26,727 nt of DNA from IMG/VR virus record IMGVR_UViG_2675903433_000037, one strand, 5' to 3'. The position numbers and the translations under genes were made by a program. Below the pieces are notes generated by a model. That model searched no databases, was not told where the DNA came from, and saw only the letters and a program-made list of their open reading frames with translations. The DNA comes from a virus (taxonomy: Duplodnaviria > Heunggongvirae > Uroviricota > Caudoviricetes). This document shows, in pieces, positions 1 to 22,618 of the stretch. Positions within the stretch are counted from its first letter, which is position 1. The number at the start of each line of letters is the position of its first letter.

Positions 1-2628
1 ATGAGCGACCTTGCGAGAGAAATTACACCGGTCAACATTGAGGAAGAGCTGAAGAGCTCCTATCTGGATTATGCGATGTCGGTCATTGTTGGCCGTGCGC
101 TGCCAGATGTCCGAGATGGCCTGAAGCCGGTACACCGTCGCGTACTTTACGCCATGAACGTACTAGGCAATGACTGGAACAAAGCCTATAAAAAATCTGC
201 CCGTGTCGTTGGTGACGTAATCGGTAAATACCATCCCCATGGTGACTCGGCGGTTTATGACACGATCGTCCGTATGGCGCAGCCATTCTCGCTGCGTTAC
301 ATGCTGGTAGACGGTCAGGGTAACTTCGGTTCCATCGACGGCGACTCTGCGGCGGCAATGCGTTATACGGAAATCCGTCTGGCGAAAATTGCCCATGAAC
401 TGATGGCCGATCTCGAAAAAGAGACGGTCGATTTCGTTGATAACTATGACGGCACGGAAAAAATTCCCGACGTCATGCCAACCAAAATTCCTAACCTGCT
501 GGTGAACGGTTCTTCCGGTATCGCCGTAGGTATGGCAACCAACATCCCGCCGCACAACCTGACGGAAGTCATCAACGGTTGTCTGGCGTATATCGATGAT
601 GAAGACATCAGCATTGAAGGGCTGATGGAACACATCCCGGGGCCGGACTTCCCGACGGCGGCAATCATTAACGGTCGTCGCGGTATTGAAGAAGCTTACC
701 GTACCGGTCGCGGCAAGGTGTATATCCGCGCTCGCGCAGAAGTGGAAGTTGACGCCAAAACCGGTCGTGAAACCATTATCGTCCACGAAATTCCGTATCA
801 GGTAAACAAAGCGCGCCTGATCGAGAAGATTGCGGAACTGGTAAAAGAAAAACGCGTGGAAGGCATCAGCGCGCTGCGTGACGAGTCTGACAAAGACGGT
901 ATGCGCATCGTGATTGAAGTGAAACGCGATGCGGTCGGTGAAGTTGTGCTCAACAACCTCTACTCCCAGACCCAGTTGCAGGTTTCTTTCGGTATCAACA
1001 TGGTGGCATTGCACCATGGTCAGCCGAAGATCATGAACCTGAAAGACATCATCGCGGCGTTTGTTCGTCACCGCCGTGAAGTGGTGACCCGTCGTACTAT
1101 TTTCGAACTGCGTAAAGCTCGCGATCGTGCTCATATCCTTGAAGCATTAGCCGTGGCGCTGGCGAACATCGACCCGATCATCGAACTGATCCGTCATGCG
1201 CCGACGCCTGCAGAAGCGAAAACTGCGCTGGTTGCTAATCCGTGGCAGCTGGGCAACGTTGCCGCGATGCTCGAACGTGCTGGCGACGATGCTGCGCGTC
1301 CGGAATGGCTGGAGCCAGAGTTCGGCGTGCGTGATGGTCTGTACTACCTGACCGAACAGCAAGCTCAGGCGATTCTGGATCTGCGTTTGCAGAAACTGAC
1401 CGGCCTTGAGCACGAAAAACTGCTCGACGAATACAAAGAGCTGCTGGATCAGATCGCGGAACTGTTGCGTATTCTTGGTAGCGCCGATCGTTTGATGGAA
1501 GTGATCCGTGAAGAGCTGGAGCTGGTTCGTGAACAGTTCGGTGACAAACGTCGTACTGAAATCACCGCCAACAGCGCAGACATCAACCTGGAAGATCTGA
1601 TCACTCAGGAAGATGTGGTAGTGACGCTCTCTCACCAGGGCTACGTTAAGTATCAGCCGCTTTCTGAATACGAAGCGCAGCGTCGTGGCGGGAAAGGTAA
1701 ATCTGCCGCACGTATTAAAGAAGAAGACTTTATCGACCGACTGCTGGTGGCGAACACTCACGACCATATTCTGTGCTTCTCCAGCCGTGGTCGCGTCTAT
1801 TCGATGAAAGTTTATCAGTTGCCGGAAGCCACTCGTGGCGCGCGCGGTCGTCCGATCGTCAACCTGCTGCCGCTGGAGCAGGACGAACGTATCACTGCGA
1901 TCCTGCCAGTGACCGAGTTTGAAGAAGGCGTGAAAGTCTTCATGGCGACCGCTAACGGTACCGTGAAGAAAACTGTCCTCACCGAGTTCAACCGTCTGCG
2001 TACCGCCGGTAAAGTGGCGATCAAACTGGTTGACGGCGATGAGCTGATCGGCGTTGACCTGACCAGCGGCGAAGACGAAGTAATGCTGTTCTCCGCTGAA
2101 GGTAAAGTGGTGCGCTTTAAAGAGTCTTCTGTCCGTGCGATGGGCTGCAACACCACCGGTGTTCGCGGTATTCGCTTAGGTGAAGGCGATAAAGTCGTCT
2201 CTCTGATCGTGCCTCGTGGCGATGGCGCAATCCTCACCGCAACGCAAAACGGTTACGGTAAACGTACCGCAGTGGCGGAATACCCAACCAAGTCGCGTGC
2301 GACGAAAGGGGTTATCTCCATTAAGGTTACTGAACGTAATGGTTTAGTGGTTGGCGCGGTACAGGTAGATGACTGCGACCAGATCATGATGATCACCGAT
2401 GCCGGTACGCTGGTACGTACTCGCGTTTCGGAAATCAGCATCGTAGGCCGTAACACCCAGGGCGTGATCCTCATCCGTACTGCGGAAGATGAAAACGTAG
2501 TGGGTCTGCAACGTGTTGCTGAACCGGTTGACGAGGAAGATCTGGATACCATCGATGGCAGTGCCGCGGAAGGGGACGATGAAATCGCTCCGGAAGTGGA
2601 CGTTGACGACGAGCCAGAAGAAGAATAA
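1..2628 (+). CDS. gyrA: DNA gyrase subunit A, complete 875 aa
   Basis: Full-length ORF matching the recalled E. coli GyrA sequence, including the QRDR '[10 protein letters not shown]' and the acidic C-terminal tail. Confidence 0.97.
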
Positions 2629-19936: not shown

Positions 19937-20164
19937 GTTATTTCCATGTAATTGCTGTGTGAAACGTAGTGTTAGTTAGGTGTTAGCAGAATATAGCATC
20001 AAAGTCGAAACCGGTAGAAAAAATATTGGTGATTATTTCGCTGCATTTGGAACTGGAACAACAATGATTATTAGCATGATTGCTTTTTCCAGTCATAAGA
20101 ATGAGTCGTGTTAATTTTTTCTATTCAATAGGAAATTATCATGTCATCAGAATATGAACAACTA

Positions 20165-20257
20165 CGGTGACTTCTGCGCTAAACGGGGACGTTTATGCGC
20201 ACATACAATCCAAACTCTCTTCTCCCTCCACAGATGCAGAAATACACCTGCGATTTT
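20165..20257 (+). repeat. Direct repeat R1 (93 bp) carrying an RBS and the 5' end of a ylcH-like small ORF
   Basis: About 94% identical to 22487-22579. Contains ggggacgtttATGcgcacatacaat..., with the ATG at 20195 opening a 46-codon ORF. Confidence 0.8.
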
Positions 20258-20414
20258 TTGCATTCGGTGTTTTTGGCAGCCAAGAACAGGGAGTCTCTGT
20301 TTGTCTGGCGGCTAAAGGTGATATGGAAATCGTGATGTCTTAGCCTAAAGTAGTTGCAACAGTTGGAGCGATTATGGTGGTAGTAGTGATCATCGCGCCC
20401 CCCATATGCAAGGG

Positions 20415-20444
20415 TTGACGACATTATTTATCCGGCGCTATATT
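20415..20444 (+). promoter_or_regulatory. Sigma70-like promoter
   Basis: -35 TTGACG, 18-bp spacer, -10 TATATT. Confidence 0.45.
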
Positions 20445-20504
20445 CTGTGCGTTGCCGCAAAATCGGCACACGGGATTGGCGTCCCGGACATCAAAACGAC
20501 GCAT

Positions 20505-20527
20505 AACCGCGTTCGCGGTTTTTTTAT
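20505..20527 (+). terminator. Intrinsic terminator in the leader upstream of the Bro-N gene
   Basis: aaccgcg-tt-cgcggtt hairpin followed by ttttttt, about 60 nt downstream of the predicted promoter. Confidence 0.55.
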
Positions 20528-20688
20528 GCGCAGTGCACGTCTACACAAAAATTATGGTGGGCTGTGTGAGGGCTTCTTCGGAAGCGCCGGATTTCGTTTT
20601 GACCGGTTACGCCAACCTTGCACAGTCCACCACCAGTCGATTGGCGTCGTCGGTGGTGATAGCTCAAATTCAAAACGAGATTATCGCT

Positions 20689-21297
20689 ATGGTCACTCAG
20701 CTCGCATTCCGCGATGTAAAATTCACTCCTATAAATCACAACAACCAGATCTGGTTTACCAGCAAAGAATTGGCGGCAGCATTAAAATATGCCAGCACCA
20801 AAGCAGTAACCGACATCTACAACAAAAATATTGATGAGTTTACTGACGGAATGTCTCAGGTCGTCGAATCAACGACCTCAGGAAATTATCGTAAGAAGAC
20901 TCGCATTTTCTCCCTCCGTGGCGCCCATCTGATCGCCATGTTCGCCCGCACTCCTGTGGCCAAAGAATTCCGCCGCTGGGTGCTGGATATTCTCGATCGA
21001 GAAATTCAACAATCCCCAATCACAAAACAATTCACTGATAACGAACTTTGCACACTTGCTTGGTTATGGCGGGCAAGTGACACAATGTTAACCGCTTGCC
21101 AAAACGTCACTCCGCTTCTTCAGGTAGCAGAACACCGCGAAGCCGGTCGCTTCACTTCAATCGAACAAGAATATCCCCGGATACTCAATAAGGCACAGGC
21201 AATCCTTGCCAGAGAAACGGCACATGTAAAATTCCGGCCGTGGCAGGATGATAAGTGGAGTCGAGTATTGACGCATTTACGTTCTGAACGGCTGTAA
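20689..21297 (+). CDS. Bro-N domain antirepressor-like protein, 202 aa
   Basis: N-terminus 'FTPINHNNQIWFTSKELAAAL...RIFSLRGAHLIAMFARTPVAKEFRRWVLDIL' fits the Bro-N pattern. The track's 281-aa ORF would span the promoter and terminator. Confidence 0.65.
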   Translation: MVTQLAFRDVKFTPINHNNQIWFTSKELAAALKYASTKAVTDIYNKNIDEFTDGMSQVVESTTSGNYRKKTRIFSLRGAHLIAMFARTPVAKEFRRWVLDILDREIQQSPITKQFTDNELCTLAWLWRASDTMLTACQNVTPLLQVAEHREAGRFTSIEQEYPRILNKAQAILARETAHVKFRPWQDDKWSRVLTHLRSERL

Positions 21298-21596
21298 TAA
21301 AGTTGCGGGAGAGAAATGCCGCTAGTATTTTGTAATTAATTGAATGCTGACGGTTTAATGAGAAGTCAAGAACACTACTTGTACTATAATCGTTCGATGT
21401 TAGTGAGGGTTTGATGCAAAAAATGAAGTGATTGACCCTAAATTTGCGCGATCAGCGACAGATTGTACACCGAGATCCTGTGGGCTGGAATTTGCAGAGA
21501 AATACCGAAAATGATATCCAATATTGTTTTCAGTTCCTACATCATACCTGATAAGGGTATAATCATAAAAATTAGGATAATTCAAGTTATAATTGT

Positions 21597-22013
21597 ATGA
21601 ATAAAAACGACCTTGAAGCATTATCTGACACTAGGCTTAATGAGGCCAAATGCTTGCTTGATCATGGCTTTTTTCATGGTGCATATTATCTTTGTGGGTA
21701 TGCAGTTGAATGTGCATTGAAGGCCTGTATTGCCAAGTCATTTTTACAACATGAGTTTCCAAACAAAAAAGTCGTAAATGATTCATATACTCATGATTTG
21801 TCGCAACTTCTCAAAATTGCCAACTTACATCAAATTTTGATTGCTGACGCAAAAAATGATGTTTCGTTGGAGATTAACTGGTCGGTCGTTAAAGACTGGA
21901 GCGAGCAATTTAGATACGACAATAACATAAGTAAAGCTATGGCCGAACAATTGTTTGATGCTGTAGGTGACCAAAATTCTGGAGTTTTGAAATGGGTAAA
22001 AGCACACTGGTAA
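21597..22013 (+). CDS. HEPN-like domain protein, 138 aa
   Basis: 'AYYLCGYAVECALKACIAK', 'YTHDLSQLLKIA' and 'EQFRYDNN' resemble the PF05168-type HEPN helical signature. AT-rich gene. Confidence 0.6.
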   Translation: MNKNDLEALSDTRLNEAKCLLDHGFFHGAYYLCGYAVECALKACIAKSFLQHEFPNKKVVNDSYTHDLSQLLKIANLHQILIADAKNDVSLEINWSVVKDWSEQFRYDNNISKAMAEQLFDAVGDQNSGVLKWVKAHW

Positions 22014-22393
22014 TCGGCAGAGAGTTGACAAAAGATATGGAATTCTCAGGTCAATTTTTGTTAAAAAAACTCAAGTTACAGAATTTAACTATTGATGCTG
22101 CAATGTGGTTTTATTACCCAGATCTATCTTGGAGATATATTTTAGTTATCAGTGACTTCTCAGAACGTGGGCCGGCAGAAATATATAGAAAAATCAGTGA
22201 GATAAATAGAAATAGCATATCAAAAAAGTATAAGCCGATACCATTAGAAGCAATTGAGGCTAAGGGGGATTCAGCTTTTGTTTATAAAATGTTAAAAGGA
22301 TTTGCTAGAGTCAACGATGGTAAAGTTCGCGTTTCTAATTCTATGGTAAATGGTTTAGAAATCGTTGACTGTCTGATCTATGAGTTAAAATAA
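21992..22393 (+). CDS. Hypothetical 133-aa protein overlapping the HEPN-like gene by 22 nt
   Basis: ATG with a ggag RBS 7 nt upstream, inside the 3' end of the HEPN-like ORF. No nucleotidyltransferase motif seen. Confidence 0.5.
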   Translation: MGKSTLVIGRELTKDMEFSGQFLLKKLKLQNLTIDAAMWFYYPDLSWRYILVISDFSERGPAEIYRKISEINRNSISKKYKPIPLEAIEAKGDSAFVYKMLKGFARVNDGKVRVSNSMVNGLEIVDCLIYELK

Positions 22394-22486
22394 GAAATCT
22401 CTTGCTGGGTATCATTATTGTTTAAATGACTTTTGATTTTCAATAATCAACTTGTCATAATTAAGTCACCGGAGTTTGAACTCCTC

Positions 22487-22579
22487 CGGTGACTTCTGCG
22501 CTAAACGGGGACGTTTATGCGCACATACAATCTAAACTATCTTCTCCCGTCACAGATGCAGAAATGCACCTGCGATTTT
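22487..22579 (+). repeat. Direct repeat R2 (93 bp)
   Basis: Second copy of R1, preceded by a perfect 9-bp-stem hairpin (tcaccggag...ctccggtga). Confidence 0.8.
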
Positions 22580-22618
22580 CTTTATCCAGCGTTTGACCTC
22601 TGCGGAGGTGAAGCGTGA
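22517..22618 (+). CDS. ylcH: YlcH-like small protein, 33 aa
   Basis: gggga RBS; [21 protein letters not shown]...; stop overlaps the GTG start of ybcN. Confidence 0.45.

What the first reader, a model, noticed from the sequence alone, without database searches (positions are those of the whole stretch)
21597..22393. Overlapping HEPN-like gene plus unrecognised partner in the nin-region cargo island
The 138-aa protein has helical signatures reminiscent of HEPN (ECALKA, THDLSQL, FRYD). The 133-aa downstream ORF overlaps it by 22 nt with its own RBS, suggesting translational coupling, and shows no nucleotidyltransferase (GS...DxD) motif. HEPN proteins are usually RNase toxins or abortive-infection effectors paired with an MNT antitoxin, so this pairing is atypical. 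Both genes are AT-rich relative to the surrounding phage DNA, consistent with acquired cargo.
Basis: partly seen in the sequence, partly recalled or inferred. Interest (0 to 1): 0.75.

Follow-up and report, generated by a model that had tools for sequence, protein, structure and literature searches.

The report
HEPN gene with unnamed obligate partner
A prophage in pathogenic E. coli carries a self-contained two-gene cassette, a HEPN-fold protein plus an unnamed partner that always travels with it across bacteria and archaea, which is most likely an uncharacterised toxin-antitoxin or phage-defence module but has never been tested.

Summary
Two real, AT-rich genes overlap by 22 nt in the nin-region cargo slot of a DLP12-like lambdoid prophage.

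**ORF138** is a genuine HEPN protein:
- Pfam PF05168 scores above its threshold.
- The AlphaFold model has pLDDT 94.
- It lacks the canonical Rx4-6H motif.

**The new finding is that the pair is not a one-off.**
- The partner follows the HEPN gene in 78 of 80 genome loci; the two exceptions are truncated contigs.
- It also follows in 42 of 42 viral loci.
- The same 22-nt overlap and internal Shine-Dalgarno occur in 60 of 65 delimited pairs, from Proteobacteria to archaea.
- The module has its own conserved −10 promoter element and occurs in 190 of 5,426 complete E. coli genomes.

**Best reading (confidence about 0.45):** a HEPN effector is held in check by a translationally coupled, non-enzymatic partner, giving a toxin-antitoxin or abortive-infection module carried as a prophage moron. 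Toxicity and defence are untested. I rate it a new variant of a known kind, of moderate interest.

The parts
21555..21563 (+). Candidate promoter -10 element GGGTATAAT of the module, with a weak -35 TTCCTA at about 21534-21539
   Evidence: A perfect TATAAT sits at 21558-21563, 33 nt before the ATG. It is conserved in relatives whose proteins are 75-85% identical (L088, L109-L119), while DNA further upstream is unrelated. The simple consensus scan did not report it because the -35 matches only 3 of 6 positions. Function is inferred, not shown.
21597..22013 (+). HEPN-fold protein gene (138 aa), PF05168 type, lacking the canonical Rx4-6H motif; the proposed effector
21981..21984 (+). Shine-Dalgarno (GGAG) for the partner gene, embedded in the HEPN codons around the invariant Gly129
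   Evidence: GGAG lies 7 nt upstream of the partner ATG. A GGAG/GGGG/GGAA-like purine run occupies the same place in nearly all of the 65 delimited pairs.
21992..22013 (+). 22-nt out-of-frame overlap of the two genes (translational coupling)
   Evidence: The overlap length is identical in 60 of 65 delimited pairs from many bacterial phyla and from archaea. The same geometry appears when starting from distant partner proteins.
21992..22393 (+). Partner gene (133 aa): unnamed alpha/beta protein family, obligate neighbour of the HEPN gene; the proposed neutraliser or regulator
22433..22594 (+). 3' boundary: phage-backbone junction element (promoter-like site, two hairpins, terminator-like end). 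It is a second copy of the element at 20111-20272 and is not part of the module itself
   Evidence: A 162-nt direct repeat, 81% identical. A perfect 12-bp hairpin at 22463-22495, z -4.5. The element follows the pair in lambdoid relatives but not in other phyla.

Best explanation
The two genes form a self-contained HEPN-based toxin-antitoxin or abortive-infection-type module, carried as an autonomously transcribed moron in the variable cargo slot of lambdoid prophages. The 138-aa HEPN protein is the effector. It most likely acts on RNA through a non-canonical site built from the invariant helix-2 Glu38 (with Lys42, Cys39 and Cys44), His66 and Arg106-Tyr107, rather than through Rx4-6H. The 133-aa partner is made in fixed proportion by translational coupling. 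It binds the HEPN protein and keeps it inactive without chemical modification, because it has none of the nucleotidyltransferase catalytic residues. It may be a degenerate descendant of the MNT antitoxin. Loss of the partner, or a phage-derived trigger, would free the HEPN protein and arrest growth. That would exclude superinfecting phages or stabilise the prophage.

Shown here: the folds, the motif content, the obligate pairing, the conserved coupling geometry, co-evolution of the two proteins, the conserved promoter element and mobility between prophages.

Inferred: toxicity, the RNA target, neutralisation by binding, and the defence role.
For: HEPN identity:
- Pfam score above threshold.

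Obligate pair:
- 78 of 80 genome loci; the 2 exceptions are contigs that end within about 340 nt.
- 42 of 42 viral loci.
- 3 of 3 look-ups starting from distant partners.
- No conserved third gene among 145 flanking ORFs.

Coupling and co-evolution:
- A 22-nt overlap with an internal SD in 60 of 65 pairs.
- Pairwise identities of the two proteins correlate, r = 0.76. HEPN is more conserved (50% against 34%) and holds most of the invariant polar residues, as expected of an effector with a fast-evolving cognate binder.

Partner is not an enzyme of the NTase kind:
- Motif in 2 of 219 partners against 120 of 120 controls.
- It is a fully folded globular protein.

Accessory, mobile distribution:
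- 325 loci in 100,044 species genomes, about 50% identical across phyla and archaea.
- In Escherichia, Klebsiella and Acinetobacter the pair sits in prophage cargo positions, once next to AbiH.
- 190 of 5,426 E. coli genomes, at several chromosomal sites.
- A conserved own -10 element.

Other support:
- Three loci have a nonsense codon in HEPN with an intact partner, against one with a frameshifted partner.
- All 39 HEPNs match the PADLOC defence candidate PDC-M28A.

Precedents:
- PF05168 HEPNs lacking the motif are reported as still toxic (PMC3710099).
- Legionella HEPN uses a helix-2 Glu/Mg2+ site, with Rx4HxY dispensable (PMC11586414).
- HepS is a HEPN abortive-infection gene in the same prophage region (PMC13043305).
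- RnlAB has the order HEPN toxin first, antitoxin second (PMC8266594).
Against: - No experiment exists; toxicity, neutralisation and defence are all inferred.
- Neither protein has a canonical catalytic motif.
- The partner has no DNA-binding domain and no disordered toxin-binding tail, unlike classical type II antitoxins.
- HEPN is unusually well conserved for a conflict-system toxin.
- Most non-proteobacterial copies sit between housekeeping genes. Only a few neighbours are defence or TA genes: 3 PtuA and 3 PIN among 145.
- The disrupted-gene count (3 against 1) is too small to be decisive, and some cases may be assembly errors.
Confidence: 0.45

Rival explanations
1. Type VII-like system with a cryptic enzyme. 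The partner is a highly diverged nucleotidyltransferase-fold protein, or another kind of enzyme, that covalently modifies the HEPN protein, for example on the invariant Tyr107 next to Arg106, as MntA AMPylates HepT.
Against: GSx10DxD is absent: 2 of 219 partners, at non-homologous positions, against 120 of 120 controls. The only near-invariant polar residues are R113 and D126. There is no Pfam NTase hit in 60 members. hhalign probability against a 123-sequence MNT profile is below 1%. Foldseek is not significant. Mutating the GS or DxD motif abolishes MntA activity (PMC7641770).
Confidence: 0.12
2. Not a conflict system. The two proteins form a stable, non-toxic complex with a cellular role, such as RNA or nucleotide binding or regulation. 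Prophages carry it as a host-benefit moron for reasons unrelated to phage exclusion.
For: Both proteins lack canonical catalytic motifs. HEPN is about 50% identical across domains of life. Most copies outside Proteobacteria lie between housekeeping genes such as purM/purH, ddl and EF-P. PMC3710099 notes that motif-less HEPN domains may be non-catalytic nucleic-acid binders.
Against: The distribution is patchy, about 0.3% of species genomes, with clear horizontal spread. The pair occupies prophage cargo positions in three genera. The HEPN keeps a dense set of invariant polar residues typical of an active site. Nonsense-disrupted HEPN genes occur with intact partners.
Confidence: 0.25
3. Reversed roles. 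The downstream alpha/beta protein is the toxin or effector, and the upstream HEPN protein is the antitoxin or sensor, following the common 'antitoxin first' operon order.
For: In most type II systems, and in MNT-HEPN dyads, the first gene is the antitoxin (PMC3710099). The HEPN here lacks Rx4-6H.
Against: The partner is the less conserved protein (34% against 50%) and has few invariant polar residues. Three loci tolerate a nonsense-disrupted HEPN with an intact partner, which is unexpected if HEPN were the antidote. Toxin-first precedents exist, such as rnlAB (PMC8266594).
Confidence: 0.08

Closest known systems
Class II HEPN/MNT modules (PF05168 HEPN with PF01909 minimal nucleotidyltransferase), as defined in PMC7641770 and as 'HEPN-T' in PMC3710099
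   Same: The HEPN protein is of the same PF05168 type and likewise lacks RX4HXY. Its nearest solved structures (TT1696, AF0298, ST0689) are of this type. It is also a two-gene overlapping operon. The partner's predicted fold is nearest to MNTs, though weakly.
   Different: The partner is not a PF01909 protein by any sequence or profile test and has no GS/DxD residues. The gene order is HEPN first; MNT is 'almost always' 5' in MNT-HEPN dyads (PMC3710099). The conserved motifs differ: SRY here against R..DY in the L025 Class II example.
[quoted passage not shown]
   Different: There is no RX4HXY, no GSX10DXD and no PF01934/DUF86 match, and the gene order is reversed. AMPylation is therefore unlikely.
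RnlAB / LsoAB (HEPN-toxin-first anti-phage TA systems of E. coli; PMC8266594)
   Different: RnlA and LsoA are large multi-domain proteins with canonical HEPN motifs. There is no sequence relation, and RnlB-like proteins are not among the partner's structural matches.
HepS of Salmonella prophage Gifsy-1 (PMC13043305)
   Same: A HEPN gene carried as constitutively expressed cargo in the replication/antirepressor/nin region of a lambdoid prophage. It acts by abortive infection.
   Different: HepS works alone, has a canonical RX4-6H motif, and has no co-occurring partner. It is not a sequence relative.
PADLOC candidate PDC-M28 (untested 'guilt-by-embedding' candidate, bioRxiv 10.1101/2024.01.29.577857)
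   Same: All 39 tested HEPN family members match the PDC-M28A model, which is 138 positions long (best E 7.5e-12; window protein 1.8e-7).
   Different: PDC-M28 is a three-gene cassette. No partner-family member matches any PADLOC model. The matches are weak, so this is a sister subfamily and not the same system.
'HEPN-T (Cpin_6617)' family in Table 1 of PMC3710099
   Same: It is described as lacking Rx4-6H, mostly bacterial, found in Bacteroidetes and Nitrospirae, and associated with alpha/beta ('ferredoxin') domains. That description could fit this family.
   Different: This is unverified. I could not retrieve Cpin_6617 to compare it. That family is described as fused to a dyad of ferredoxin domains, whereas I saw no HEPN-partner fusion among 175 HEPN and 219 partner sequences.

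Membership tests
HEPN superfamily, PF05168 type (ORF138) | Match to the Pfam HEPN model above its gathering score | tested here: met
   27.8 bits against a cutoff of 22, E 3e-6. Most family members carry a precomputed PF05168 hit.
HEPN superfamily, PF05168 type (ORF138) | All-alpha HEPN fold similar to solved HEPN domains | tested here: met
HEPN superfamily, PF05168 type (ORF138) | Rx4-6H catalytic motif at the end of helix 3 | tested here: not met
   Arg106 is invariant, but a His at R+5..7 occurs in only 2 of 175 sequences and an Asp in 19 of 175. PMC3710099 records that PF05168 members often lack the His and keep a conserved His elsewhere; here that is His66, 100% conserved.
HEPN superfamily, PF05168 type (ORF138) | Conserved acidic residue in helix 2 | tested here: met
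   Glu38 is 100% conserved within helix 26-46.
Type VII HepT/MntA (Class I HEPN/MNT) | RX4HXY motif in the HEPN protein | tested here: not met
   Absent from the window protein and from the family. No PF01934 or PF08780 hit.
Type VII HepT/MntA (Class I HEPN/MNT) | GSX10DXD motif in the partner (PF01909) | tested here: not met
   2 of 219 chance matches at non-homologous positions, against 120 of 120 MNT controls. No PF01909 or PF18765 hit in 60 members.
Type VII HepT/MntA (Class I HEPN/MNT) | MNT gene upstream of the HEPN gene | tested here: not met
   The HEPN gene is upstream in all 120+ loci examined.
Minimal nucleotidyltransferase (Pol-beta fold) superfamily (ORF133) | Sequence or profile similarity to MNT families | tested here: not met
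   Pfam scan of 60 members found none. A PDB profile search found none. hhalign against a 123-sequence Class II MNT profile gave a probability below 1%.
Minimal nucleotidyltransferase (Pol-beta fold) superfamily (ORF133) | Pol-beta-like alpha/beta fold | tested here: inconclusive
Classical type II toxin-antitoxin module | Two small, adjacent, co-directional, co-transcribed genes with sporadic mobile distribution | tested here: met
   Overlapping genes, patchy cross-phylum distribution, prophage cargo positions.
Classical type II toxin-antitoxin module | Antitoxin with a DNA-binding domain and a disordered toxin-binding region | tested here: not met
   The partner is globular with pLDDT above 90 throughout, and 60 members have no HTH, RHH or AbrB Pfam hit.
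Classical type II toxin-antitoxin module | One product toxic and the other neutralising | not testable with these tools
   This requires expression experiments. The only indirect hint is 3 loci with nonsense-disrupted HEPN and an intact partner, against 1 with the reverse.
PADLOC candidate PDC-M28 | All components of the cassette present | tested here: not met
   Only the A model matches, and weakly. PDC-M28 is a three-gene cassette. The partner matches no PADLOC model, and there is no conserved third gene.

The most novel reading that the evidence does not exclude
The 133-aa protein founds a structurally distinct, so far unnamed family of HEPN-controlling proteins that replaced the nucleotidyltransferase antitoxin. 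On this reading the pair is a new class of HEPN toxin-antitoxin or abortive-infection system: HEPN first, neutralisation without AMPylation, and a non-canonical and possibly metal-dependent HEPN active site. It would be spread across bacteria and archaea and mobilised by lambdoid prophages of pathogenic E. coli and Klebsiella.
Probability: 0.35. Interest if true: 0.7.

Novelty: new variant of a known kind. Interest (0 to 1): 0.55.

Why it matters
HEPN/MNT is regarded as the most abundant toxin-antitoxin module in prokaryotes, and its accepted logic is neutralisation by AMPylation. Here the same kind of HEPN protein is locked to a different, motif-less partner, in the opposite gene order and with an unusually conserved coupling geometry.

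If the pair is a working TA or defence system, three things follow:
- It would show a second, non-enzymatic way to control PF05168-type HEPN proteins.
- It would give a function to an unannotated protein family (233 clusters at 50% identity; PHROGs 5737 and 5760).
- It would add a defence or stabilisation cargo to the prophages of O26, O103 and O157 EHEC and of Klebsiella.

It would also offer a compact test case for how HEPN proteins without Rx4-6H act.

Tried and rejected
- **Complex model.** I fused partner, linker and HEPN into one chain with 43 paired rows (A3).
- **AFDB50 fold search.** The library was unavailable.
- **Viral scan with the partner alignment.** There was no stretch conserved enough to search with.
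- **Sequence-level PDB searches** of both proteins and both family profiles returned only chance hits.
- **hhalign of the partner family against MNT profiles** was negative.
- **PADLOC and Pfam scans of 60 partner members** were negative.
- **HEPN-partner fusion proteins.** I found none. The only double hit, P0015, is a mis-called gene in a contaminated eukaryotic assembly.
- **Megablast against the GenBank phage collection** found no match.
- **Literature searches** for the accessions, the PHROG ids, PDC-M28 and HEPN in lambdoid prophages found no description of this pair.
- **Membership in PDC-M28** was considered and rejected, because that is a three-gene cassette.
- **HepS and Butters gp57r as relatives** were considered and rejected, because both are solo proteins with canonical motifs.
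- **The hairpin at 22463-22495 as the module's terminator** was considered and rejected. It has no T-tract and belongs to a repeated backbone element.

Full report
**1. The observation**

The window holds two + strand ORFs, 21597..22013 (138 aa) and 21992..22393 (133 aa). They overlap by 22 nt. A GGAG lies 7 nt before the second ATG. GC content falls to 0.34-0.37 over the pair, against 0.47-0.54 on either side.

The window matches a DLP12-like lambdoid prophage integrated at tRNA-Arg in E. coli O26:H11 str. 11368 and many other EHEC strains. The pair lies after replication protein P and an antirepressor-like gene, and before ybcN-ninE-ybcO-rusA-ylcG-Q. RefSeq names the first gene 'HEPN domain-containing protein' (WP_001038620.1) and the second 'hypothetical protein' (WP_000520500.1).

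**2. ORF138 is a HEPN protein of the PF05168 type without the canonical motif**

- Pfam HEPN scores 27.8 bits against a gathering score of 22.
- With a 39-sequence alignment, AlphaFold2 gives an all-helical model with pLDDT 93.6.

The family is wide: 438 hits in the word-indexed search, at about 50% identity to Chloroflexi, Bacteroidota, Acidobacteria, Planctomycetes, cyanobacteria and ANME/Methanosarcinales archaea.

In 175 unique sequences, these residues are 100% conserved: R13, L20, Y31, Y35, E38, F54, P55, H66, L71, W101, R106 and Y107. C39, K42, C44 and E103 are at least 97% conserved.

Arg106 sits where the R of Rx4-6H is expected. A His 5-7 residues on is present in only 2 of 175 sequences. 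This fits the 'HEPN-T (PF05168)' description in PMC3710099: the His is often missing and a conserved His lies elsewhere. It also fits 'Class II' in PMC7641770.

Activity without the motif has a precedent. In Legionella HEPN the RNase centre is a Mg2+ site formed by Gln44 and Glu47 of helix 2, and the motif's Arg and His are dispensable (PMC11586414). The analogous candidate here is Glu38 on helix 26-46. This step is an inference.

**3. ORF133 belongs to an unnamed family**

It has no Pfam, NCBIfam or PADLOC match. Its only family is PHROG 5760, of unknown function. The word-indexed search found only enterobacterial and Acinetobacter relatives. The exhaustive HMMER search found 233 cluster representatives of about 130 aa.

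In 219 sequences W39 and Y130 are invariant. W47, G20, Y65, R113, D126 and G60 are at least 95% conserved.

AlphaFold2 gives a confident globular model: pLDDT 94.7, pTM 0.88, topology a-b-b-a-b-a-b-b.

The evidence on whether it is a nucleotidyltransferase is as follows.
- The scores are low, and unrelated alpha/beta sandwiches score nearly as well.
- Foldseek finds nothing at E <= 0.001.
- Sixty members show no consistent Pfam hit.
- hhalign against a 123-sequence profile of Class II MNTs gives a probability below 1%.
- The GS...DxD motif occurs in 2 of 219 partners, at non-homologous positions, against 120 of 120 MNT controls.

I therefore do not file the partner as an MNT. A descent from MNT with loss of catalysis remains possible, at roughly even odds in my judgement, but it is not demonstrated.

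**4. The pair is an obligate, ancient module**

- A scan of one genome per species found 325 loci encoding the HEPN family.
- In the 80 loci kept, the partner lies immediately downstream on the same strand in 78. The other two contigs end within about 340 nt of the HEPN gene.
- All 42 IMG/VR viral loci have the partner as well.
- Three distant partner proteins looked up independently are each preceded by an overlapping 138-aa gene.
- In 60 of 65 pairs with delimitable starts the overlap is exactly 22 nt. The partner ATG lies inside the codons of the conserved HEPN tail 'GVLxW', and a purine-rich SD sits at the invariant Gly129.
- Pairwise identities of the two proteins correlate (r = 0.76). 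HEPN is more conserved, at 50% against 34%.
- No third gene is conserved. 145 flanking ORFs from 75 loci hit 172 different Pfam families. The commonest are EF-P (5), PIN (3) and Septu PtuA (3).
- No HEPN-partner fusion was seen.

**5. Mobility and expression**

- In Klebsiella the pair (75-79% identical) occupies the same nin slot, before NinG.
- In Acinetobacter it lies at a prophage end, next to UmuDC and AbiH.
- In Bacteroidota, Chloroflexi and others it sits between housekeeping genes. In one Woeseiaceae contig it sits among PIN, HicB and Fic loci.
- In E. coli it is present once, intact and at least 99% identical, in 190 of 5,426 complete genomes. It lies at different chromosomal positions in O26, O103 and O157:H7.
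- A perfect -10 element (GGGTATAAT, 21555-21563) is conserved among relatives whose upstream DNA is otherwise unrelated. This indicates an own promoter, and hence a moron.
- Similarity between relatives ends right after the partner stop codon. It resumes in a backbone element.

**6. Mechanism**

The most economical reading is a HEPN effector with a dedicated neutralising partner. The arguments are:
- the superfamily to which ORF138 belongs;
- the two-gene selfish-module architecture and patchy horizontal distribution;
- the prophage cargo positions and the own promoter;
- the concentration of invariant polar residues in HEPN, not in the partner;
- the faster, correlated evolution of the partner;
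- three loci with a nonsense codon in HEPN and an intact partner, against one with a frameshifted partner.

Because the partner lacks NTase residues, neutralisation would be by binding and not by AMPylation.

Precedents for individual elements of this reading are:
- RnlAB for the toxin-first order (PMC8266594);
- HepS for a HEPN Abi gene in this prophage region (PMC13043305);
- the report, relayed in PMC3710099, that motif-less PF05168 HEPNs are toxic.

I put this reading at about 0.45. The rivals are a non-conflict complex (0.25), a cryptic modifying enzyme (0.12) and reversed roles (0.08). Nothing about toxicity, target or defence has been shown.

**7. Comparison with known systems, and novelty**

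The HEPN half is a member of a known family and is already annotated. The pair fails the defining tests of type VII HepT/MntA: it has no RX4HXY, no GSX10DXD, and the opposite gene order. It fails the partner test of Class II HEPN/MNT.

PADLOC's untested candidate PDC-M28A is a sister HEPN subfamily: 39 of 39 members match, best E 7.5e-12. PDC-M28 itself is a three-gene cassette, and the partner matches no PADLOC model.

Table 1 of PMC3710099 lists a 'HEPN-T (Cpin_6617)' family without Rx4-6H that is fused to ferredoxin-like domains. This might be related, but I could not test it.

I found no paper describing this pair. I rate it a new variant of a known kind, with interest 0.55. It is a well-defined, widespread and testable candidate, but not a surprise in kind, and its function is unproven.

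Noticed in passing
window 20111-20272 and 22433-22594: A 162-nt direct repeat, 81% identical, brackets a 2.3-kb segment holding the isrK/C4 RNAs, the antirepressor-like gene and the HEPN pair. Each copy has a promoter-like TTGATT-17-CATAAT, two hairpins and a terminator-like end; in copy 2 the first hairpin is a perfect 12-bp stem at 22463-22495 (z -4.5). In related prophages the stems differ in sequence at the same positions, which may be covariation. There is no Rfam match. RefSeq calls a 33-aa ORF here. It could be an unannotated small RNA of about 115 nt, or a recombination junction for cargo exchange.
   Followed up: partly
window 20438-20637: Rfam finds isrK (RF01394, 64 bits), C4 antisense RNA (RF01695, 82.5 bits) and, just below its gathering score, the c4-a1b1 target element (RF03163). 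They lie directly upstream of the P22AR C-terminal-domain (antirepressor-like) CDS at about 20689-21297. Together they form a P1/P7-style antisense-controlled antirepressor module next to the HEPN pair.
   Followed up: no
L139 654-1211 (protein P0258): One distant partner homologue carries a C-terminal DUF1508/YegP domain. Several others (P0243, P0248) have basic low-complexity tails, and the L046 partner has an unassigned 140-aa extension. These hint that the partner can recruit extra, possibly nucleic-acid-binding, parts.
   Followed up: partly
L033 about 6147, L083 about 2523, L081 about 6306; L075 about 4560: In-frame nonsense codons interrupt the HEPN gene in three metagenome-assembled or single-cell genomes while the partner stays intact. 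One locus has a frameshifted partner with an intact HEPN. The Catalinimonas assembly (L002) differs from a read-based assembly (L003) at the partner's N-terminus. Sequencing error is not excluded.
   Followed up: partly
L088/L089 3221-5082: In the Klebsiella prophages that carry the pair, a ParB-like HTH gene and a DndB-like gene lie about 2 kb upstream in the same early-region cargo stretch. This may be another defence-related moron.
   Followed up: no
window 21298-21530: About 230 nt of AT-rich DNA lie between the antirepressor-like gene and the module's conserved promoter region. It has no counterpart in the diverged relatives aligned, and its only ORF is an implausible 73-aa one on the minus strand (21400-21621). 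Its origin is unknown.
   Followed up: no
HEPN protein residues 39 and 44 (window 21711-21713 and 21726-21728): Two cysteines in the helix-2 motif ECALKAC are 97-99% conserved, alongside the invariant E38 and H66. This combination would suit metal binding, which is unusual for HEPN proteins.
   Followed up: no
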